From a virus: a stretch of 37,095 nucleotides of DNA. Below, in pieces: positions 5,482-27,657 of this stretch. Position 1 is the stretch's first letter. Each line of letters starts with the position of its first letter. The translations under genes and the position numbers were made by a program. Location of the stretch: IMG/VR virus record IMGVR_UViG_3300045988_070690, positions 1-37,095 of that record, one strand, 5' to 3'. The notes beneath the pieces were generated by a model. That model was not told where the DNA came from. It was given only the letters and a program-made list of their open reading frames with translations, and did not search any database.

Positions 5482-6369
5482 TCAGGTCTTAGATACCGAT
5501 GCGTAGATGCCAAACTTCTTGTTGTCGTACACCTCTGTGATGCCGTAAGCACGGTAGAAGTACAGCCATGCATCAGAGTGCTGGTTCTGCTCCGGTGTGA
5601 TGACCTTGTTTACAGTGTGCTTGGTGAACTGGATCGGGGAATTTTTCTGCACGATCAGGAAGTTCAACTTCTTGCCTGCGGTTGCTGCCTTATATCCGCC
5701 GGCACTCTCATCAGCACCGGAAGAACCCGTCTTATCTACGCCGGAGAGCAGGTCAATGGCACTGTAAAAACGCGACTGCGGTACGCGGATTGTCTTCGCA
5801 AAGCCCGCCAGCATCGCCTTGGACTTGTAAGTGTCCAGTGCCTGAATCGCGTTGTACATAGTCGGTGTGATGTACAGCAGGCGGCTTTCCTGCGGCACCT
5901 CTGCCTCGTCCATAGCGATGTTTGCAGCGGTAATCGCAGCACAAACTGCCGCACCGTCTGCGAGATCTTCGCTCTTGTTGGTGCCAGCTGCCTTTGCATA
6001 TGCAGCAAAACGCCACGCGTCCATTTCCGGCACGACCTTGGTACGGATAAACTCAGAAGCAAGCTTTCCGAAGGACAGTGCTGCGGTTTCCTCGTTGTCC
6101 ATAGCGTCCACACTGAACCGTCTGCCGCGGTCGTAGTTAAACGTCTTTTCAACCCACTCCAGATCTACGTCACCGGACACGTAGCCGTCCTTGCGGCTGT
6201 AGTCCCCAAGACCGTCCATGCTCATCTTGGGGATCAAGATCGTCCGTGCATTGCTGCCCTGCCGTACAGTGCTGGAATCCGATTCCAGATCTGCTGTCAG
6301 TGTAGCACTCTTGTACACTTCGTCCAGCAGTTCGATATACTTTTTAATCAGTGTGAGATTGTTTGCCAT
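5482..6369 (-). CDS. Major capsid protein
   Basis: 295 aa. MANNLTLIKKYIELLDEVYKSATLTADLESD..IPKMSMDGLGDYSR resembles SPP1/A118-type major capsid proteins. It follows the scaffold gene. Confidence 0.85.
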   Translation of the reverse strand: MANNLTLIKKYIELLDEVYKSATLTADLESDSSTVRQGSNARTILIPKMSMDGLGDYSRKDGYVSGDVDLEWVEKTFNYDRGRRFSVDAMDNEETAALSFGKLASEFIRTKVVPEMDAWRFAAYAKAAGTNKSEDLADGAAVCAAITAANIAMDEAEVPQESRLLYITPTMYNAIQALDTYKSKAMLAGFAKTIRVPQSRFYSAIDLLSGVDKTGSSGADESAGGYKAATAGKKLNFLIVQKNSPIQFTKHTVNKVITPEQNQHSDAWLYFYRAYGITEVYDNKKFGIYASVSKT

Positions 6370-20648: not shown

Positions 20649-20877
20649 TCCGCTTCCTGTGCAGCTCACCAACCAAGGAATTTAACGCAATATCTGCAAT
20701 TTTGTGCATAATTGCGTCAATTTTTTCCGCGTCCTTTTCGCGGTCCAAGCAGTAGTTGTCTGCAATCGCAATTTTGGTGTTCCCCACCATGAATCGCTCC
20801 ACGATGTGCGGTGTTTCTTCCCTGCGGCTTTCTGCCATAATTTTCAGACCCTTTCTGCTAAACTCTGTACAAGTCAC
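20620..20877 (-). CDS. Hypothetical protein
   Basis: 85 aa. Either a GTGA overlap with the antirepressor stop, or an alternative ATG at 20838. Confidence 0.45.
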   Translation of the reverse strand: MTCTEFSRKGLKIMAESRREETPHIVERFMVGNTKIAIADNYCLDREKDAEKIDAIMHKIADIALNSLVGELHRKRNEGNERDHM

Positions 20878-21641
20878 CGTGCGTTCATGAACTTGTTGAT
20901 AAAGTAAACTTGTCCCTTGCCCGTCACCTTCGGCGTTTTGTTGGTGGTGATATGCCCGTCAGAGTGCGTGATGATAGTCTGCTTCACTTCAAACAGCCCC
21001 ATTTCCGCAGATTTCTGCGTCGGCATGTTGTAGTCGCTGCCCTCTCGCTTTATCAGGTATCCGTTTTCACGGAGCCAAGCAAAAAGTCTGAACTGCCCTG
21101 TGTCCACGCCGTTCTGCTTCAGAATCTTTGCAAGTTCACCCACCAAGATGCTGGATTTCGACGCGGAAACGCTGTCTGCGAACAGTACTTTCGGCTTGTC
21201 CTGCTCCACTTTGGCTTCAAGCTGCTTTCGCTGCTCTTTTTCTTCTTTCAGCTGCGTCGCAAGCTGGATCAGAAAATCCGGTGAAGTCAAAGCCTGCTCC
21301 AGCGTCTGATCTGTCATGTACGCACCGTGCTTGCGTATAGACGGCAGGACCACGCTGGTAACCCACCGCTTGAACTTCTTCGCGTTCGGCAGTTTGCTGG
21401 AAAGAACAAGACTGTAGAGACCGGATTCGTTTAAAATTGTCAAATCCTGTGCGCCACCAAGGGTGTAACATTTCGTTACCCCCTTATCCTCAGCGTCAAC
21501 ATGGTCTGCTATCGCTTTGCTTGCGTTTGCATATCCCAGAACCTTTGCTACATCCTTTGCAACGAACCACGGCTCGCTGTCTTTCTCAACGGTGCGGATT
21601 TCGTGATACTCATAGTTCCAGACTAGTAAATTATTGTTCAT
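20874..21641 (-). CDS. Antirepressor (Bro-N domain plus KilAC/ANT C-terminal domain)
   Basis: 255 aa. Bro-N region (IRTVEKDSEPWFVAKDVAKVLGY..AIADHVDAEDKG) and C-terminal region (LVGELAKILKQNGVDTGQFRLFAWLRENGYLIKR). Confidence 0.8.
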   Translation of the reverse strand: MNNNLLVWNYEYHEIRTVEKDSEPWFVAKDVAKVLGYANASKAIADHVDAEDKGVTKCYTLGGAQDLTILNESGLYSLVLSSKLPNAKKFKRWVTSVVLPSIRKHGAYMTDQTLEQALTSPDFLIQLATQLKEEKEQRKQLEAKVEQDKPKVLFADSVSASKSSILVGELAKILKQNGVDTGQFRLFAWLRENGYLIKREGSDYNMPTQKSAEMGLFEVKQTIITHSDGHITTNKTPKVTGKGQVYFINKFMNAR

Positions 21642-21657
21642 GTTTCATCTTCCTTTC

Positions 21658-21858
21658 TTACGCCGGCATAAGCGGCAGAACTTTTTCGGCAGCTGCGGCG
21701 ATAGACGCTTGATAGAGCACGTGTCGTGCTTTTTCCTCACTTAGTCCGCCGATCAACTCGAAAAGTGTGACGACCTGCCCGATGTCAGCGTTGTACTTAC
21801 GACACGCTTCCATAAGTGTCATCGTGTCATCAAAAGTGGTTTTTACAGGCTCTCCCAT
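21658..21858 (-). CDS. Hypothetical protein; first conventional early gene after the non-coding block
   Basis: ATG at 21858 follows a GAGGTGA RBS. The track uses GTG at 21867. Confidence 0.45.
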   Translation of the reverse strand: MGEPVKTTFDDTMTLMEACRKYNADIGQVVTLFELIGGLSEEKARHVLYQASIAAAAEKVLPLMPA

Positions 21859-21867
21859 AGCTTTCAC

Positions 21868-22417
21868 CTCGCTTTCTTTTTAGATTTGTGGTAGGCACTG
21901 ATCTGCTCAATGCCCAGAAGCACCGGCACACGCATATCTCATGCGGGACGGTATGCACTGTGTGCTTTTACAGGCTTTCAGCCGCCTGTGGTCGCTGCTG
22001 TACTAGGTCTGCGTAACGTTATCACAGCCTTGCCCACAGCTGGGCTGGTGGAGCGTTCGGGGGTTGCACCTAAAGCTGTGGATTGTCAGCCCACAGCATG
22101 ACTGCATCGCTCCCCTTGCGGCGGCATCGTACTAGCCGCCGCGTGGAGAAAAATAAAAATGGAGGTATTACGCCATCATGGCGTTTTGAAGATGTTGGTG
22201 CGGCGTGCCGGAGTTGCACCGGAGCCGGTGGAAAGGTTGACCGGCTATCTGTTCGCCACATCTGACCGCGGTGTTGGCAGCACCACGGTCAGTTGCAATT
22301 GAAAGGAGTACACCGAGCAGTTTAACGTCTTACTCTGGACGGCTTTTTTGTTGTCCGCCAGTCGCGGACGTGTGGAAGCGGTCAGTTTAGAGCCGTACCG
22401 CCGGACGGCTTGAAAAA
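21868..22417 (-). ncRNA. Candidate structured non-coding RNA, distal block (about 550 nt)
   Basis: No RBS-led ORF. GC-rich with many perfect stems (22118-22125/22135-22142; 22262-22292; 22391-22410). One G.U pair forms only in the minus-strand sense. Confidence 0.4.
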
Positions 22418-22418
22418 T
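22372..22418. repeat. 47-bp direct repeat, left copy (44/47 identical to 23325-23371), containing hairpin AGCCGT-N8-ACGGCT
   Basis: Aligned by eye: GTGGAAGCGGTCAGTTTAGAGCCGTACCGCCGGACGGCTTGAAAAAT versus GTGGAAACGGTCAGTTTAGAGCCGTACCGCCGGACGGCTGGAAAAGT. Confidence 0.9.
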
Positions 22419-22894
22419 CAATACACCATTCCATTTTCGCGAATATGCATAAAGCCGCGAATTAGCCATGTCGGAACTTGTGAGTATCCAACGAAACCGC
22501 TTTTTTCATTGTAAACCGCTTGCTGTATATCATATGCTACACACCTACCAGCCCTATTCTCAATCAAAATATAGCATTTTTCGCCATTTTCCGGTTTCGT
22601 TTTATCGGTGTAGTTACCATGCCACTTTCTGAGATCCATAATATTTTTCTCATAATAGGCTCTAATTGATTTGTTAAAAAGAACTTCATATGCTGTAACG
22701 ATTTCCCCGCTGTTGCGTTTATCCTGTCCAATCGGATATGCAACCATAACAACATTTTCGCCGTTCTTATCACATTCATATAACACATTACATACTTCAC
22801 AACTGCCATTATTAAATTTGCACAATACTGGCGGATAATGCAAGGCAACTTTCATAATATCGTCAATGCTCATGCCATTTGTTTTTTTTAACAT
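22418..22894 (-). CDS. Orphan protein (158 aa) of the AT-rich cassette
   Basis: ATG follows a GGAGGAAAAAAGAA RBS. Sequence starts MLKKTNGMSIDDIMKVALHYPPVLCKFNNGSCEVCNVLYECDK... No family recognised. Confidence 0.6.
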   Translation of the reverse strand: MLKKTNGMSIDDIMKVALHYPPVLCKFNNGSCEVCNVLYECDKNGENVVMVAYPIGQDKRNSGEIVTAYEVLFNKSIRAYYEKNIMDLRKWHGNYTDKTKPENGEKCYILIENRAGRCVAYDIQQAVYNEKSGFVGYSQVPTWLIRGFMHIRENGMVY

Positions 22895-23035
22895 TTCTTT
22901 TTTCCTCCAAAAAAAATAAGATTTTTTCGCCTTGTGGTGTGGTGTATTATACTTGCCACTTTGTGCAGTTATGGAATACTACTTTTTTTCGTGAAGTAGT
23001 TCAGAAACACGTCTTTTCTTTTAGCCTTTTAGCTT

Positions 23036-23275
23036 CTACTTTTTTACATAGTCCTTAAAATGCTTCATAGGCTTATCGACTTCATAACCCCAGCGTTTTA
23101 TAATATTTTCGTTGCCTTCCTCCATAAAAACATTGACTTCAAAAAAGATTGTTTCTGTGTTTTCTGGAAGTGTTTCTCTAATTTCCTTGCACTTTTGCAA
23201 AGAAGCAGAGATGAACAAAACCGTCTCACGTAATACGTTTTTTGAAATATCGATTGCAGAAACAGAATACAGCAT
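23036..23275 (-). CDS. Orphan protein (79 aa) of the AT-rich cassette
   Basis: ATG follows a GGAGGTATAAAGTC RBS. Sequence starts MLYSVSAIDISKNVLRETVLFISASLQKCKEIRETL... No family recognised. Confidence 0.55.
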   Translation of the reverse strand: MLYSVSAIDISKNVLRETVLFISASLQKCKEIRETLPENTETIFFEVNVFMEEGNENIIKRWGYEVDKPMKHFKDYVKK

Positions 23276-23637
23276 GACTTTATACCTCCATGAATTTATT
23301 TTTTACGTGTTTTCGCCTGTCGGCGTGGAAACGGTCAGTTTAGAGCCGTACCGCCGGACGGCTGGAAAAGTAGCATTTACTCTCCCGACGGGTGTTGGTG
23401 GATGCTGCGGAATTGCACCGCACAGCAAGACAGAGGAAACGAAATAGACAATGCTCCCTGTTGGAGACAGCTGCCACGGAGTTGCACCGTGCATTGCCCA
23501 GAGGCTTCATATCTCTCAGCTGGACAACTAAGACGCACCCCCAATTATGCGGTGATACGCCACCACCTTATGCTTATTCGCTTTCCCTATAGGCGGGAAA
23601 CAAAATTTTCAGTCGTTCGCGTTTTGCCCTTGACTGT
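23276..23637 (-). ncRNA. Candidate structured non-coding RNA / long leader, promoter-proximal block (about 360 nt)
   Basis: It starts just downstream of the leftward consensus promoter. No credible ORF. Contains two T-arm-like hairpins (23475-23491, 23406-23422). Confidence 0.4.
23325..23371. repeat. 47-bp direct repeat, right copy
   Basis: See 22372-22418. The copies start 953 bp apart. Confidence 0.9.
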
Positions 23638-23643
23638 AATTAA

Positions 23644-23672
23644 ATTATAGCACATAACGCCAACATTGTCAA
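23644..23672 (-). promoter_or_regulatory. Early leftward promoter, perfect TTGACA-17-TATAAT
   Basis: Minus strand: -35 at 23667-23672, -10 at 23644-23649, 17-nt spacer. Confidence 0.8.
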
Positions 23673-23680
23673 CTGGAATA

Positions 23681-23727
23681 TTACACAAATCGCATACGAT
23701 ATTTTTGTGCAGTTTGCGTAATGTGAA
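23681..23727. promoter_or_regulatory. Imperfect inverted repeat between the divergent promoters (candidate repressor operator)
   Basis: TTACACAAATCGCA (23681-23694) versus the reverse complement of TGCGTAATGTGAA (23715-23727). The core CACAwwwCGCA is shared. Confidence 0.35.
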
Positions 23728-23746
23728 AATTAAAGCAAAAATTCAC

Positions 23747-23775
23747 TTGACAGCGTTCACGTTTTGTAGTATAAT
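23747..23775 (+). promoter_or_regulatory. Rightward repressor promoter, perfect TTGACA-17-TATAAT
   Basis: -35 at 23747-23752, -10 at 23770-23775. A GGAGG RBS follows, then ATG at 23800. Confidence 0.8.
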
Positions 23776-23799
23776 AGAATATAGAAAGGAGGTGATAGC

Positions 23800-24306
23800 A
23801 TGTGCTGGTATGAAATCTTGAAAACACTACGCGAAAAATCTGGGGAATCCATGTCGAAAACAGCAGAATTTCTTGGAATCCCAAAAGGTACGTATGCAAG
23901 CTATGAGTACGGGAAGCGAGAGCCTAACATAGAAATGATTTTGAAAATTTCAGATCATTTCGGCGTAGCAATTGACTATCTACTAGGTGGGAAATCCGCG
24001 GAAACGCCAGAAGACACCATAAAAAGGCTTGCAAAGCAGTACAAGATGACAGATGCACAGAGGGGTATTGCAGCCGCATACTTTTATATGGACAAAGAAA
24101 ACCGAGAAAAGCTTCTGGAGATCGTCAGGACGTTTGCAGACAGTGCAGATGCCGCGGAATCCAAAGAATCCCGCGAAAAATTCGAAAAAGTCAAGGTTGC
24201 AGCTTACCAAAATCCCGCCGGAAGTATCCCACGTGAAGCAGAGTATCCGCAGGAGCTGCTTGACGATATGGACAAAAACGCCCCTCTGACAGACCCAGAT
24301 ATGTGA
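23800..24306 (+). CDS. XRE-family repressor (ImmR-like)
   Basis: 168 aa. HTH LREKSGESMSKTAEFLGIPKGTYASYEYGKREPNIEMILKISDHFGVAIDYLLG. No S24 peptidase domain. Followed by the ImmA-like gene. Confidence 0.85.
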   Translation: MCWYEILKTLREKSGESMSKTAEFLGIPKGTYASYEYGKREPNIEMILKISDHFGVAIDYLLGGKSAETPEDTIKRLAKQYKMTDAQRGIAAAYFYMDKENREKLLEIVRTFADSADAAESKESREKFEKVKVAAYQNPAGSIPREAEYPQELLDDMDKNAPLTDPDM

Positions 24307-26067: not shown

Positions 26068-27657
26068 TTGGACACATACTGTATATATCTACGAAAATCG
26101 CGTGCGGACGCAGAAGCTGAAGCACGCGGAGAGGGCGAAACCCTGGCACGGCACGAGCACACACTGTGCGACTTAGCCAAGCGGCAGAAGCTCCACATAT
26201 CTAAGATATACCGCGAGATCGTATCCGGCGAAACGATCGCAGCAAGACCGCAGATGCAGCAGCTTCTGCAAGACGTGGAAAGCGGCATATACGCTGGTGT
26301 GCTGGTCATGGAGGTAGAGCGACTTGCCCGCGGTGACACCATAGATCAAGGCATCGTGGCACAAGCTTTTAAGTACTCTGGCACAAAGATCGTCACACCT
26401 ACTAAGACGTATGACCCAGACAATGAGTTTGACGAGGAATACTTCGAATTTTCACTTTTTATGTCACGGAGAGAGTACAAGACGATCAAGCGGCGTATGC
26501 AGGCAGGGCGTGCAGCAGCGGCGAAAGAGGGAAAATTTGTCGGAAATATCCCGCCTTACGGATACGACCGGAAAAAGCTTGACCATGACAGTGGCTTTAT
26601 GCTGGTACCAAACGAAAAGGCAAAAATTGTAAAAATGATATTTGAGTGGTACACTGTGGGTGTCGTCATGCCAGACGGAACGCGGCAGCGAATCGGCACG
26701 ACACACATCGCAAACCGACTGCATCAAATGGGCATAAAAACGCCACGGGGCGGGCGTTGGAACAACTACTCTGTCCGCAGTATACTGCTTAACCCCGTGT
26801 ACTGCGGTGTTATCCGGTGGGGATACCGCAGGGGTAAAAGCAAGCTGCAAAACGGCGTCATCACTAAAACGCGACCGACAGCCGAAGATGGATATATAGA
26901 AGCAAAAGGCTTGCACGATCCTCTCATATCGCAAGAGACCTATGACACCGCACAGGAACTTGCACACGCCGCTGCAAAGATACCCAAGGTTAAGCTGGGC
27001 GGGGCTCTCAAAAATCCGTTAGCGGGGATTGTGGTGTGCCGTAAATGCGGGAAAAGCATGGGGCGGCAGCCATACACAAGTGAAAGGTACAGCGGCGAAA
27101 TGCTGATCTGCAAAACCCCCGACTGCCGGTGCGTTTCATCTGATATACACATAGTGGAGCAACGGCTGCTTGATAGCCTTGCAGAGTGGCTGCATCAGTA
27201 TGAGGTACAGTGGCAGGAGCACACGATGCAAGCCACAGCCGCCGAACCGAAGGACGATCAGACCGCCGTCTTAGAAGATCTTCGGAAAGAGCAAGCAAAG
27301 GCAAAAGCACAGCTTGCAAAAGCTTACGATCTGCTAGAGCAAGAGATATACGACACCAACACCTTTGTGGAGCGTTCCAGCATCTTAAAAGCAAAAATCT
27401 CCGATTTGCAGGACAGTATAGACCATATAGAGAAAAGCGTGCGGGAGATGTCATCGCGTGACGATGACATGCAAAAGATCATACCAAAGGTAAAGCATAT
27501 CTTAGAGGTATACAGCACGCTTCCAGATGCGTCAGCGAAAAACCAGCTGCTTAAAGAAGTACTTGAAAAAGCAGAGTACAGCAAAGACCACAGCACCCGC
27601 TGGCACGGAAATCCCGACGATTTTGACCTTGTGATTTTCCCGAAACTTCCAAGGTGA
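26068..27657 (+). CDS. int: Large serine recombinase (integrase)
   Basis: 529 aa with a TTG start. Catalytic N-terminus CIYLRKSRAD..ETLARHE, recombinase domain, zinc-ribbon (CRKCGKSM..CKTPDC) and C-terminal coiled coil. Confidence 0.9.
   Translation: MDTYCIYLRKSRADAEAEARGEGETLARHEHTLCDLAKRQKLHISKIYREIVSGETIAARPQMQQLLQDVESGIYAGVLVMEVERLARGDTIDQGIVAQAFKYSGTKIVTPTKTYDPDNEFDEEYFEFSLFMSRREYKTIKRRMQAGRAAAAKEGKFVGNIPPYGYDRKKLDHDSGFMLVPNEKAKIVKMIFEWYTVGVVMPDGTRQRIGTTHIANRLHQMGIKTPRGGRWNNYSVRSILLNPVYCGVIRWGYRRGKSKLQNGVITKTRPTAEDGYIEAKGLHDPLISQETYDTAQELAHAAAKIPKVKLGGALKNPLAGIVVCRKCGKSMGRQPYTSERYSGEMLICKTPDCRCVSSDIHIVEQRLLDSLAEWLHQYEVQWQEHTMQATAAEPKDDQTAVLEDLRKEQAKAKAQLAKAYDLLEQEIYDTNTFVERSSILKAKISDLQDSIDHIEKSVREMSSRDDDMQKIIPKVKHILEVYSTLPDASAKNQLLKEVLEKAEYSKDHSTRWHGNPDDFDLVIFPKLPR

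What the first reader, a model, noticed from the sequence alone, without database searches (positions are those of the whole stretch)
22059..23491. Four T-arm-plus-CCA (tRNA 3'-half-like) modules with an invariant UGCAAYU loop
On the minus strand, four hairpins share the architecture of a 4-5 bp stem with a 7-nt loop UGCAAYU. They are CACGG-UGCAACU-CCGUG (23475-23491), UGCGG-UGCAAUU-CCGCA (23406-23422), CCGG-UGCAACU-CCGG (22208-22222) and a weaker GG-UGCAACC-CC (22059-22070). Each is followed 6-10 nt later by CCA or ACCA (..GCAGCUGUCUCCA, GCAUCCACCA, CACGCCGCACCA, GAACGCUCCACCA). This is the geometry of a tRNA T-arm, 3' acceptor strand and CCA. The loop differs from the canonical UUCRANY only at its second position, which is G in all copies. 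The U..A positions that define a T-loop fold are kept. For the 23475 copy, a 6-bp helix (CAGCUG with CAGCUG) closes a mini-cloverleaf of about 56 nt that lacks a D-arm. For the 22208 copy, a partial acceptor pairing (5 of 7) and a 7-bp stem AGCCGGU/ACCGGCU lie at tRNA-like distances, but the anticodon loop is not canonical. None looks like a functional standard tRNA. Possible roles are tRNA mimics or decoys (for CCA-adding or modification enzymes, or against tRNA-targeting defence nucleases), or structural T-loop modules of a larger RNA.
Basis: seen in the sequence. Interest (0 to 1): 0.7.

Follow-up and report, generated by a model that had tools for sequence, protein, structure and literature searches.

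The report
D-arm-less tRNA-like units in phage leader
A gut Ruminococcus prophage carries three conserved, undescribed tRNA-shaped RNA units (plus one extra T-loop hairpin) in the untranslated parts of its early transcript upstream of the antirepressor gene; they most likely act as handles for the host's tRNA-processing enzymes.

Summary
GGTGCAAYYCC occurs four times, all on the minus strand within 1.4 kb, against 0.08 expected by chance.

The anatomy needs correcting. Three hairpins (23406, 22208, 22057) are the T-arms of complete tRNA-like units that lack a D-arm. Each unit has a 6-bp acceptor helix, a connector, a central arm, a T-arm, a discriminator A and CCA. The units are Element A (23540-23396), M3 (22259-22196) and M4 (22113-22046). 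The fourth hairpin (23475) sits at the tip of Element A's long central arm. Its CCA and the proposed CAGCUG closure are not conserved.

The units lie downstream of a perfect sigma-70 promoter that faces away from a CI-like repressor gene, and upstream of ORF66 and a Bro/ANT antirepressor. Related gut phages keep them at 78-91% identity, while neighbouring third codon positions are about 50% identical. Compensatory changes support the helices. ARAGORN and Rfam 15 do not recognise them, and I found no published description.

Best reading (about 0.4): these are tRNA-like processing or punctuation elements, cut by RNase P and by tRNA 3'-end enzymes. They would be analogous to the P1 c4 RNA or to plant mitochondrial t-elements. 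Decoy and regulatory roles remain open.

The parts
23644..23672 (-). Early promoter, TTGACA-17-TATAAT with an extended TG. It faces away from the promoter of the CI-like repressor gene (23800-24306 +).
   Evidence: 12 of 12 matches to the consensus. HTH_3 / CI-repressor domains on the opposite side.
23551..23564 (-). Hairpin GGUGGCGUAUCACC, 10 nt upstream of Element A.
   Evidence: Conserved as GGUGAGCGAAUCACC in relatives.
23396..23540 (-). Element A, a 145-nt tRNA-like unit. It has acceptor 5' GGGUGC (23540-23535), a 12-nt connector, a long central arm (23522-23427), the M2 T-arm, and acceptor 3' GCAUCC + A + CCA (23405-23396).
   Evidence: MFE and RNAalifold folds. On 20 variants, 96.5% of cells are paired and 5 pairs changed on both sides; only 4 of 500 shuffles reach that. 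In natural short forms the arm is replaced by CAGCA-GCUU-UGCUG.
23475..23491 (-). M1, a T-loop-type hairpin CACGG-UGCAACU-CCGUG at the tip of Element A's central arm. It is not a tRNA 3' module.
Evidence: position in the consensus fold. (absent from short forms). (downstream CCA not conserved).
23406..23422 (-). M2, the T-arm of Element A: UGCGG-UGCAAUU-CCGCA.
   Evidence: G-C changes to G-U in relatives, and 100% of cells are paired.
23325..23369 (-). D1 repeat, copy 1. The core 28-mer is AGCCGUCCGGCGGUACGGCU-CUAAACUG (23363-23336).
22418..23275 (-). ORF79 (23275-23036) and ORF158 (22894-22418), a gene cassette lying between the two D1 copies. It is absent from the closest relative, L021.
   Evidence: No Pfam or PHROG hit.
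22372..22416 (-). D1 repeat, copy 2 (core 22410-22383).
22315..22340 (-). m1, a 26-nt motif GUCCAGAGUAAGACGUUAAACUGCUC (a small hairpin followed by UUAAACUG). It is the 5' border of Element B.
   Evidence: It is exactly or nearly exactly conserved in about 25 otherwise unrelated phage and bacterial contigs.
22262..22292 (-). H1, a 12-bp hairpin that ends 2 nt before the first base of M3.
22196..22259 (-). M3, a 64-nt tRNA-like unit: GUGGCGA / ACAGAU / AGCCGGU-CAACCUUUCC-ACCGGCU / CCGG-UGCAACU-CCGG / C-ACGCCGC-A-CCA.
   Evidence: MFE and RNAalifold folds. Covariation: G-C to U-A in the central stem (L129) and U-G to U-A in the acceptor (L117). It is 90.6% identical to the L153 lineage.
22143..22184 (-). 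Hairpin H2 (22184-22170) followed by the invariant pyrimidine-rich tract UAAUACCUCCAUUUUUAUUUUUCUCC.
   Evidence: The spacer between M3 and M4 is 86% identical between lineages.
22118..22142 (-). H3, a G+C-rich hairpin GCGGCGGC...GCCGCCGC that ends 4 nt before M4.
   Evidence: 100% of cells are paired.
22046..22113 (-). M4, a 68-nt tRNA-like unit: GGAGCGA / UGCAGUCAUG / CUGUGGG-CUGACAA-UCCACAG / CU / UUAGG-UGCAACC-CCCGA / ACGCUCC-A-CCA. The central loop has the shape of an anticodon loop (GAC).
   Evidence: Compensatory changes occur in the acceptor (GGAGCG/CGCUCC versus GGAUUG/CAAUCC in L154) and in the T-stem (UUAGG/CCUGA versus UCCGGG/CCCGGA). ARAGORN -mt calls it tRNA-Val(gac), but that mode has a high false-positive rate.
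21859..22045 (-). The rest of Element B: hairpin H4 (22045-22032), a lineage-variable insert, a conserved 3' domain (22000-21888), and the ORF66 ribosome-binding region (21881-21865).
20874..21858 (-). Downstream genes: ORF66 (21858-21658) and the Bro-N/KilAC antirepressor (21641-20874).

Best explanation
The region is the untranslated part of the phage's early (lytic-direction) transcript. It holds three complete, D-arm-less tRNA-like units: Element A, M3 and M4.

Each unit presents the part of a tRNA that end-processing enzymes read. That part is a 6-bp acceptor helix stacked on a 5-bp T-arm with a near-canonical T-loop, then a discriminator A and usually an encoded CCA. Each unit is preceded within 2-10 nt by a stable hairpin.

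I propose that host RNase P cuts at the 5' side of each unit. The 3' side would be trimmed back to CCA by exonucleases, or cut by RNase Z in the variants that lack CCA. This would chop the polycistronic early RNA into separately stable pieces. The upstream pieces would end in a protective hairpin. The downstream pieces would begin at or just after a compact tRNA-like fold. Small stable tRNA-like RNAs would also be released. In this way the units would set how much ORF66-antirepressor message, and first-gene message in Element A phages, survives.

M1 is not such a unit. It is a T-loop hairpin decorating the optional long arm of Element A.

Shown: sequence, location, strand, conservation, purifying selection, and helices supported by compensatory changes.
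Inferred: transcription from the promoter, cleavage by RNase P and RNase Z, and the effect on expression.
For: 1. Geometry. All three units have acceptor 6 bp (+ a 7-66 mismatch in M3 and M4) + T-stem 5 = 11-12 stacked pairs, G1-C72, A73 and CCA. The review PMC3858429 states that an acceptor-plus-T-arm minihelix is a known minimal RNase P substrate. It also states that the tRNA-like precursor of phage P1/P7 C4 RNA is an RNase P substrate, and that plant mitochondrial tRNA-like t-elements separate mRNAs.

2. The folds are predicted independently by MFE and by RNAalifold. The M3-M4 stretch folds with z = -5.1.

3. Covariation. In Element B, 94.9% of cells are paired and 14 cells changed on both sides (0 of 500 shuffles reach this; slid controls give 0-5). 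In Element A, 5 pairs changed on both sides (4 of 500 shuffles). L154 restores the M4 acceptor with two compensatory pairs.

4. Purifying selection. M3 is 90.6% identical, the spacer 86%, M4 78% and the 3' domain 82%. Third codon positions of the adjacent ORF66 and ant are 49-54% identical.

5. Fixed context. M3 and M4 lie about 380 and 230 nt upstream of ORF66-ant in every relative that has Element B. Element A lies in the leader of the first early gene, 12-30 nt before its SD in many phages.

6. The central arm is freely replaceable, ranging from a 14-nt hairpin to a roughly 96-nt arm, while acceptor and T-arm stay. This is as expected if the acceptor/T-arm face is the functional part.

7. 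Other phages (L162, L042) carry units of the same design.

8. The neighbourhood is rich in other likely RNA-processing motifs (m1/D1). Elsewhere m1 sits next to a twister ribozyme and next to tRNAs.
Against: - There are no expression or end-mapping data, so cleavage is pure inference.
- The encoded CCA is not universal. Short forms of Element A and L109 have ACAAA instead.
- Strong sequence conservation extends to the spacers and to a 110-nt 3' domain. Simple punctuation does not explain that.
- Element A's acceptor helix shows only one-sided changes.
- All relatives are close, so the covariation counts are small, and relatedness can inflate the shuffle statistics.
- G at T-loop position 55 and the purine-purine 7-66 mismatch are conserved oddities that the processing model does not require.
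Confidence: 0.4

Rival explanations
1. tRNA mimics acting in trans as decoys or sponges. The released units would occupy host factors that read the acceptor/T-arm/CCA face of tRNA. Candidates are the CCA-adding enzyme, T-loop modification enzymes, EF-Tu, aminoacyl-tRNA synthetases, or defence toxins that modify or cut tRNA 3' ends. M4, with anticodon-like loop CUGACAA, A73 and CCA, might even be charged.
For: - Immediate-early location behind a consensus promoter.
- Three units per phage, all with the same conserved T-loop variant.
- The M4 loop CUGACAW is kept in two diverged lineages.
- The same G55 T-loop occurs in genuine phage tRNA-Tyr genes and in phage-borne tmRNAs, so it is compatible with tRNA-type function.
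- Conservation is stronger than punctuation alone needs.
Against: - No tRNA-related enzyme or known anti-defence gene was found nearby.
- The central loops are not conserved between units. The M3 loop is 10 nt, short Element A has a tetraloop, and L114 replaces the M4 loop.
- CCA is absent from some Element A variants.
- No partner is identified, so nothing here distinguishes this model from processing.
Confidence: 0.2
2. Parts of a larger cis-acting structured leader, about 480-550 nt for Element B, that controls ORF66-ant expression through its overall fold (attenuation, translation control or protein binding). The tRNA-like modules would be architectural building blocks rather than enzyme handles.
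For: - The whole stretch from m1 to the ORF66 SD is conserved, including spacers and a 110-nt 3' domain with its own covarying hairpins.
- M1 is clearly an internal structural hairpin.
- Element B is always directly upstream of ORF66-ant.
Against: - The exact spacing of acceptor, T-arm, A73 and CCA, repeated three times, has no reason to exist in a purely architectural role.
- Element A and Element B occur independently of each other in different phages.
- The one long-range pairing predicted (anti-SD 22167-22155 with the ORF66 SD) is no better than chance: -11.1 kcal/mol against -9.7 +/- 2.8 for shuffles, rank 528 of 2519 windows.
- There is no Rfam match to any riboswitch or leader family.
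Confidence: 0.15
3. A functional analogue of the P1/P7 c4 or P4 CI immunity RNAs. A tRNA-like RNA would be cut out of the leader by RNase P and then base-pair with the downstream message to shut off the small ORF and the antirepressor.
For: - The gene order (tRNA-like RNA, then a small ORF of 66 aa, then ant) mirrors c4-icd-ant of P1. The P1 order is from my own knowledge.
- The tRNA-like nature of the C4 precursor and its RNase P cleavage are cited in PMC3858429.
- A pyrimidine-rich CCUCC tract lies between two hairpins right after M3.
Against: - A search of the transcript found no complementarity above chance. There were four perfect 10-bp matches against about 3.8 expected.
- The M3 loop matches the ant SD over only 6 nt.
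- The anti-SD/ORF66 pairing is at chance level.
- There is no Rfam C4 hit.
- The promoter is the CI-controlled early one, so the RNA would not be made in a lysogen, where an immunity RNA is needed.
Confidence: 0.1
4. Decaying relics of phage tRNA genes, or att-type tRNA gene fragments, with no present function.
For: - M4 keeps a tRNA-Val-like anticodon loop and GGAG/CUCC acceptor ends.
- ARAGORN in mitochondrial mode calls it tRNA-Val(gac).
- M3 and M4 look like duplicates: their 5' strands match at 5 of 7 positions, and so do their 3' strands.
Against: - Conservation is far above the neutral level: 78-91% against about 50% at third codon positions.
- Compensatory changes keep the helices.
- The units are complete, not 3' fragments.
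- The integrase is a serine recombinase, and the units are not beside it.
- ARAGORN -mt gives 6 hits in the window against 4.4 per shuffle, so its call carries no weight.
Confidence: 0.05
5. DNA-level sites (operators, iterons or recombination sites), or protein-coding sequence on the opposite strand.
For: - The location is near the immunity switch.
- A 47-aa antisense ORF (22159-22302 +) overlaps M3 and stays open in the closest relatives.
Against: - All four motifs share one orientation.
- Compensatory changes preserve RNA helices as much as 60-140 nt apart, which is meaningless for a DNA site.
- The antisense ORF is broken in the L060/L101 lineage, and no frame stays open in all variants.
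Confidence: 0.04

Closest known systems
C4 antisense RNA of phages P1/P7 (Rfam C4, RF01695) and CI RNA of P4
   Same: Both are small tRNA-like RNAs embedded in the leader of a phage operon. In P1 that operon continues with a small ORF and then the antirepressor. The C4 precursor is a natural RNase P substrate with reduced D and T loops (PMC3858429).
   Different: - There is no sequence or covariance-model similarity.
- No antisense target was found.
- Here there are three units per phage, with a near-canonical T-loop and an encoded ACCA.
- The host is a Bacillota member (Ruminococcus), not an enterobacterium.
- The promoter here is the repressor-controlled early one.
Plant mitochondrial t-elements, animal mitochondrial tRNA punctuation, and the nuclear mascRNA
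   Same: All are tRNA-shaped folds inside longer transcripts that RNase P and RNase Z use as cutting marks to separate RNAs (t-elements: PMC3858429; the others are from my own knowledge). Some are D-arm-less.
   Different: Those are organellar or eukaryotic systems. No bacterial or phage family of this kind is curated in Rfam 15. Processing has not been shown here.
tmRNA tRNA-like domain, including the 'TLD-only' mini versions seen in some phage contigs
   Same: Both have an acceptor helix, a connector instead of a D-arm, a long arm emerging where the anticodon arm would be, a T-arm and ACCA. Several phage-borne tmRNAs carry the same GGUGCAAYUCC T-loop (L025, L092, L094, L001).
   Different: - There is no tag reading frame and there are no pseudoknots.
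- There is no conserved G3-U70.
- There is no 5' GGGG...UUCGAC signature.
- ARAGORN and the Rfam tmRNA models are negative.
Canonical tRNA (Rfam RF00005), including phage tRNA-Tyr genes with a G55 T-loop
   Same: The acceptor, T-arm, A73 and CCA geometry is shared, and the T-loop is identical to that of bona fide phage tRNA-Tyr(GUA) genes in L004, L023, L024 and L097. The M4 central loop is CUGACAA.
   Different: - There is no D-arm.
- The units are 64-68 nt, or 145 nt for Element A.
- The central loops are a 10-nt loop or a tetraloop in M3 and in short Element A.
- They are not detected by ARAGORN or by Rfam at E<=10.
Bacterial Y RNAs (YrlA)
   Same: These are non-coding RNAs, also found in phages, with a module that mimics the tRNA T-arm and acceptor (PMC4201824, listed).
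   Different: YrlA units sit next to an rsr (Ro60) gene and carry a Ro-binding stem. Here there is no Rfam hit, and none of the 30 window ORFs scanned had a Ro60 (TROVE) domain.
Theta (HDV-like) ribozymes beside tRNAs in gut phages
   Same: They come from the same ecological setting and concern the same theme, how phage transcripts get their tRNA ends (PMC10879173).
   Different: Those are self-cleaving ribozymes placed 3' of real, mostly CCA-less tRNAs. No HDV-like or other ribozyme hit occurs in this window.

Membership tests
tRNA (RF00005) | Four-arm cloverleaf detectable by tRNA gene finders or a covariance model | tested here: not met
   ARAGORN in standard mode finds 0 genes in the window. 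Rfam gives no tRNA hit at gathering score, nor at E<=10 on 21500-24000.
tRNA (RF00005) | D-arm (3-4 bp stem, loop with G18 G19) | tested here: not met
   The connectors are 6 nt (M3), 10 nt (M4) and 11-12 nt (Element A). At most a 2-3 bp stem is possible.
tRNA (RF00005) | 7-bp acceptor stacked on a 5-bp T-arm, T-loop G53-T54-Psi55-C56-R57-A58-N59-Y60-C61, discriminator base, CCA | tested here: met
   This is met for M2/Element A, M3 and M4, with three deviations: G55, a 6-bp acceptor plus a 7-66 mismatch, and a 4-5 bp T-stem.
tRNA (RF00005) | 5-bp anticodon stem with a 7-nt loop (Y-U-NNN-R-N) | tested here: inconclusive
   M4 has CUGACAA on a 7-bp stem, kept in two lineages but replaced in L114. 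M3 has a 10-nt loop. Short Element A has a tetraloop.
tmRNA | tRNA-like domain plus an internal tag-peptide reading frame and pseudoknots; G3-U70 | tested here: not met
   ARAGORN tmRNA search and the Rfam tmRNA families are negative. No stop-terminated tag frame is seen on reading Element A. G3-U70 is present only in some variants.
C4 / CI phage antisense RNAs (RF01695) | Match to the family covariance model | tested here: not met
   No hit at gathering score or at E<=10.
C4 / CI phage antisense RNAs (RF01695) | Loops complementary to target sites in the same operon's leader or RBS | tested here: not met
   No complementarity above chance.
C4 / CI phage antisense RNAs (RF01695) | Excised from the operon leader by RNase P | not testable with these tools
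   This needs end mapping or an in vitro RNase P assay.
tRNA-like punctuation elements (t-element type) | tRNA-shaped fold inside a longer transcript between coding segments, on the sense strand | tested here: met
   The units lie between the promoter and ORF79, and between ORF158 and ORF66, on the gene strand. The same placement is seen in relatives.
tRNA-like punctuation elements (t-element type) | Cleaved by RNase P and RNase Z in vivo | not testable with these tools
   No transcriptome data are available.
Bacterial Y RNA (YrlA) | Adjacent rsr (Ro60/TROVE) gene and a Ro-binding helix | tested here: not met
   None of the 30 window ORFs scanned had a TROVE domain. There is no Rfam hit.
ROOL / GOLLD large phage RNAs | Match to the Rfam models | tested here: not met
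   There is no hit in the window. The same search finds ROOL in the unrelated locus L042, so the method works.
att-site tRNA gene fragment | 3' part of a host tRNA/tmRNA gene only, next to an integrase, identical to the host gene | tested here: not met
   The units have their own 5' acceptor strands. The recombinase is a serine type, 3.5 kb away. The host tmRNA in L006 has a normal UUCGA T-loop and a different sequence.

The most novel reading that the evidence does not exclude
A DNA phage encodes a family of D-arm-less tRNA mimics, made from the first transcript after infection or induction, that work as free RNAs. They would be matured by RNase P and the CCA machinery. They would then engage host tRNA-binding proteins, for example as sponges for tRNA-3'-end-modifying or tRNA-cleaving defence toxins. 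Alternatively M4 (anticodon-like GAC loop, A73, CCA) would be a chargeable valine-type tRNA-like structure. The invariant G55 T-loop and the purine-purine 7-66 mismatch would be the features that let them bind some partners while escaping others.
Probability: 0.15. Interest if true: 0.85.

Novelty: new variant of a known kind. Interest (0 to 1): 0.6.

Why it matters
tRNA-shaped processing signals inside mRNAs are textbook for organelles and are known from one enterobacterial phage family (P1/P7 c4, P4 CI). No such family is described or curated for Bacillota phages.

Here is a compact, conserved and modular version, with up to three units in one phage. It sits at the lysis-lysogeny control region of abundant human-gut Ruminococcus phages. 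If the units are cut by RNase P and RNase Z, they give a simple, testable account of how these phages meter antirepressor and early-gene expression after transcription. If instead they act as free tRNA mimics, they would add an RNA class to the current picture of phage counter-measures against tRNA-directed immunity.

In either case the alignments made here are enough to build a covariance model and to survey metagenomes.

Tried and rejected
- **Standard tRNA and tmRNA finders, and Rfam.** Nothing was found at gathering score or at E<=10.
- **ARAGORN relaxed and mitochondrial modes.** The -mt mode calls M4 a 68-nt tRNA-Val(gac). The same mode gives 6 hits in the window against 4.4 per shuffled window, so I give it no weight.
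- **Search for relatives.** blastn of the region against 50,697 phage genomes gave no match. A protein-anchored search with ORF158 in genome contigs gave none either.
- **Copies of host tmRNA or tRNA 3' ends (att sites).** Rejected. The host tmRNA next to Element A in L006 is unrelated, and the units are complete.
Rejected.
- **Antisense (c4-like) targets.** Long-range complementarity in the transcript is at chance level. The M3 loop matches the ant SD over only 6 nt. The RNAalifold-predicted anti-SD/SD pairing is no better than shuffles.
- **Opposite-strand coding.** The 47-aa ORF is not kept in all lineages.
- **m1/D1 as CRISPR repeats or RNA anti-CRISPRs.** A scan of 185,579 species genomes found only single copies and no arrays.
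- **m1 as a pistol or other known ribozyme.** No Rfam hit at E<=1 in ten loci. A literature text search for the sequence found only an AFLP-primer coincidence.
- **Pfam and PHROG scans of 30 window ORFs** for tRNA-related enzymes, Ro60 or known anti-defence genes found none.


Full report
**Setting.** The window is a temperate siphovirus or prophage.
- It encodes a large terminase, portal and minor capsid protein. It also encodes a CI-like HTH repressor (23800-24306 +), an M78-type peptidase, an Ltp lipoprotein and a large serine recombinase (26068-27657 +).
- On the minus strand it encodes a Bro-N/KilAC antirepressor (21641-20874), RecT, a PD-(D/E)XK nuclease and SSB.
- A perfect TTGACA-17-TATAAT promoter (23672-23644, minus) faces away from an equally perfect promoter for the repressor.
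- The finding lies on the minus strand downstream of that early promoter.
- An exact 21-mer from the region occurs in two Ruminococcus genome assemblies. All close relatives come from human or animal gut metagenomes.

**Checking the observation.**
- GGTGCAAYYCC occurs four times, all on the minus strand and within 1.43 kb. Shuffles give a mean of 0.08, and 0 of 100 reach four.
- The loops match the T-loop consensus, including the G53-C61 closing pair, U54, C56, R57, A58 and Y60. The only deviation is G at position 55.
- A generic scan for a T-arm followed by 6-8 nt and NCCA picks out exactly M2, M3 and M4 on the minus strand of the window.

**Anatomy: M3 and M4.** Each is a complete unit, not a 3' half.
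- M3 (22259-22196, 64 nt) reads GUGGCGA / ACAGAU / AGCCGGU-CAACCUUUCC-ACCGGCU / CCGG-UGCAACU-CCGG / C / ACGCCGC / A / CCA.
- M4 (22113-22046, 68 nt) reads GGAGCGA / UGCAGUCAUG / CUGUGGG-CUGACAA-UCCACAG / CU / UUAGG-UGCAACC-CCCGA / ACGCUCC / A / CCA.
- Both have six acceptor pairs, an A.A at 7-66, no D-arm, a central arm, and the exact tRNA spacing from T-arm to CCA.
- Thermodynamic folding recovers these folds. The M3 fold appears in the single-sequence MFE (z = -5.1 for the 291-nt stretch), and both units appear in the RNAalifold consensus of the whole element.

**Anatomy: Element A.** The M2 T-arm is closed in the same way. GGGUGC (23540-23535) pairs with GCAUCC (23405-23400), followed by A and CCA. 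Between them lies a 12-nt connector and a long arm (23522-23427) that carries M1 at its tip.

Nature has done the deletion experiment. In eight IMG/VR contigs the whole arm, M1 included, is replaced by CAGCA-GCUU-UGCUG. This leaves a unit of about 60 nt with the same plan as M3 and M4.

It follows that M1 is an optional decoration. That proposed helix is paired in only 65% of cells in its second half, and its sixth pair exists only in this window. The CCA after M1 is replaced in relatives.

**Relatives and modularity.**
- Element A is a discrete block, 91-92% identical, in some 37 IMG/VR contigs and two Ruminococcus genomes, with unrelated flanks. It always lies in the leader of the first early gene(s), and in many phages only 12-30 nt before the Shine-Dalgarno sequence.
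- Element B runs from m1 to the ORF66 ribosome-binding site and contains M3 and M4. It is found in every contig that encodes a close ORF66 homologue, with M3 and M4 about 380 and 230 nt upstream of ORF66, which is followed by the antirepressor.
- Only this window and L021 have both elements.
- In L021, Element A runs straight into Element B. So ORF79 and ORF158 of the window are a cassette lying between two copies of the 45-nt D1 repeat.
- More distant ORF66 homologues lack Element B.
- A different phage (L162) has three UGCAAYU hairpins. Two of them are full units with a 6-bp acceptor, a purine-purine 7-66 mismatch, A73 and CCA. One shares its acceptor with a minihelix 650 nt upstream of a ROOL RNA in L042. 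The design is therefore not confined to one phage lineage.

**Is it functional RNA?**
- Between the window and the L153 lineage, third codon positions of ORF66 and ant are 49% and 54% identical. M3 is 90.6% identical, the M3-M4 spacer 86%, M4 78% and the 3' domain 82%.
- No reading frame on either strand stays open in all variants.
- On 14 distinct Element B sequences, 94.9% of cells form standard pairs. Seven pairs and 14 cells changed on both sides. No shuffle out of 500 reaches the cell count, and sliding the partner gives 0-2 pairs.
- The clearest cases are these: G-C to U-A in the M3 central stem; three pair changes in the M4 T-stem, two of them on both sides, between UUAGG/CCUGA and UCCGGG/CCCGGA; and the M4 acceptor, where GGAGCG/CGCUCC becomes GGAUUG/CAAUCC in L154, with L060 as a mismatched intermediate.
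- On 20 Element A sequences, 96.5% of cells pair and five pairs changed on both sides; only 4 of 500 shuffles reach this. The acceptor itself shows only one-sided changes.
- The sample is shallow and closely related, so these numbers support the folds without proving every helix.

**What it is not.**
- Standard ARAGORN finds no tRNA or tmRNA. Rfam 15 gives nothing at gathering score and nothing relevant at E<=10.
- ARAGORN's mitochondrial mode calls M4 a tRNA-Val(gac) with precisely my coordinates. That mode yields 6 hits in the window and 4.4 per shuffle, so it is not evidence.
- The units are not att-type fragments of a host gene. They are complete, the integrase is a serine recombinase elsewhere, and the host tmRNA seen beside Element A in L006 is unrelated.
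- The same T-loop does occur in real phage tRNA-Tyr genes and in phage-borne tmRNAs. UGCAAYU is therefore a working T-loop variant, not a degenerate one.

**Mechanism.** What the three units share, and what survives replacement of the central arm, is the acceptor/T-arm coaxial stack with G1-C72, A73 and usually CCA. This is the surface read by RNase P and by the 3'-end machinery.
- The review PMC3858429 records three relevant facts. An acceptor-plus-T-arm minihelix is a known minimal RNase P substrate. The tRNA-like precursor of phage P1/P7 C4 RNA is a natural substrate. Plant mitochondrial t-elements use the same principle to separate mRNAs.
- Each unit is preceded within 2-10 nt by a stable hairpin (23564-23551, H1, H3). 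After a cut at -1/+1, that hairpin would protect the 3' end of the upstream piece.
- The CCA-less short forms end ...GCAUCC-A-CAAAA just before an SD. By general knowledge of Bacillota tRNA maturation, such ends would be RNase Z substrates, whereas CCA-bearing ones would be trimmed by exonucleases.
- I therefore favour, at about 0.4, a punctuation and stability role in the early transcript. This role would set ORF66-antirepressor expression and first-gene expression.

This reading does not explain the conservation of the spacers and of the 3' domain. It also does not explain the invariant G55 or the 7-66 mismatch. A trans-acting mimic or decoy role (0.2) and a larger regulatory leader (0.15) therefore stay open.

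A c4-like antisense role is attractive because of the order tRNA-like RNA, small ORF, ant. I found no complementarity above chance. The one long-range pairing predicted by RNAalifold is no better than shuffles.

**Novelty.** No Rfam family and no paper in the searchable library describes these units. In kind they belong with tRNA-like processing elements. They are new in form (D-arm-less, G55 T-loop, modular central arm), in host range (Bacillota gut phages) and in placement (the lysis-lysogeny leader). I rate them a new variant of a known kind, with interest 0.6.

**Side observations.** The region also carries a second, unexplained motif family, m1/D1, whose 26-nt core is conserved across phyla. 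It and other side observations are listed under 'noticed in passing'.

Noticed in passing
window 22315-22340 (minus); also L133-L151, L156-L161, L186: The 26-nt motif GUCC(U/A)GAGUAAGACGUUAAACUGCUC (a small hairpin plus UUAAACUG) is exactly or almost exactly conserved in about 25 otherwise unrelated phage and bacterial contigs. Hosts include Saccharibacteria, Peptoniphilus, Aedoeadaptatus, Geobacillus phage D6E and Streptococcus Javan prophages. It is always intergenic, co-oriented with the flanking genes, and has no conserved flanks. In D6E, the Javan phages and L139 it follows an intrinsic terminator and precedes the scaffold-capsid genes. In L145 a twister-P1 ribozyme hit starts right after it, and in L160/L161 a tRNA follows 75 nt later. 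It is not in Rfam, it is not a CRISPR array repeat, and I found no mention in the literature.
   Followed up: partly
window 23325-23369 and 22372-22416 (minus); L021 4528-4555; L105-L107: The 45-nt D1 repeat (core AGCCGUCCGGCGGUACGGCU-CUAAACUG) follows the same design as m1, a hairpin plus YUAAACUG. It sits at module borders. The two copies bracket the ORF79/ORF158 cassette. L021 lacks precisely 38 nt containing the copy after Element A, and has a covarying variant (AGCCGC...GCGGCU-CUAAACAA) before Element A. This may mark RNA-processing sites that double as recombination joints.
   Followed up: partly
L004, L023, L024, L097 (tRNA-Tyr); L025, L092, L094 (tmRNA): Genuine phage tRNA-Tyr(GUA) genes, and phage-borne standard and permuted tmRNAs, carry the same unusual T-loop with G at position 55 (GGUGCAAYUCC) instead of the universal U/Psi55.
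   Followed up: partly
L001 12183-12260, L074, L026/L063 (about 80 nt), L008, L020: Short RNAs of about 78-85 nt have a perfect 7-bp acceptor, a tmRNA-like 5' region (GGGGGCGAC..GGUUGACGG), a G55 T-arm and ACCA. Rfam scores L001 as a tmRNA with the whole mRNA-like part deleted. They look like 'tRNA-like-domain-only' mini-tmRNAs in phages.
   Followed up: no
L042 4740-5258 (ROOL) and 5916-5942; L062, L067, L077, L089: A ROOL RNA (306 bits) lies about 650 nt downstream of an acceptor/T-arm minihelix (GUUCC...GUGGG-UGCAAUU-CCCAC-ACGGAAC-ACCA). That minihelix shares its acceptor with one unit of L162.
   Followed up: no
L162 13900-14300: A non-coding stretch in an unrelated phage has three UGCAAYU hairpins. 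Two are full D-arm-less units. The third has ACCA directly after a 6-bp stem.
   Followed up: partly
window 22155-22167 (minus): The invariant tract UACCUCCAUUUUU between hairpins H2 and H3 has the same CCUCC core as the 16S rRNA anti-Shine-Dalgarno. Its best partner in the transcript is the ORF79 ribosome-binding site (AUGGAGGUAU, 10 bp, -20.6 kcal/mol). ORF79 is absent from most relatives that keep the tract.
   Followed up: partly
L006, L014, L046, L047 and others, flanks of Element A: The sequence GCCCGUCGGGAGCGUAUCCCGACCCA occurs both about 140 nt upstream of Element A and immediately after it in many phages. It is a hairpin-forming direct repeat that brackets the element.
   Followed up: no
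window 22159-22302 (plus): A 47-aa ORF with a plausible SD lies antisense to M3. It is open in the closest relatives but broken in the L060/L101 lineage.
   Followed up: yes
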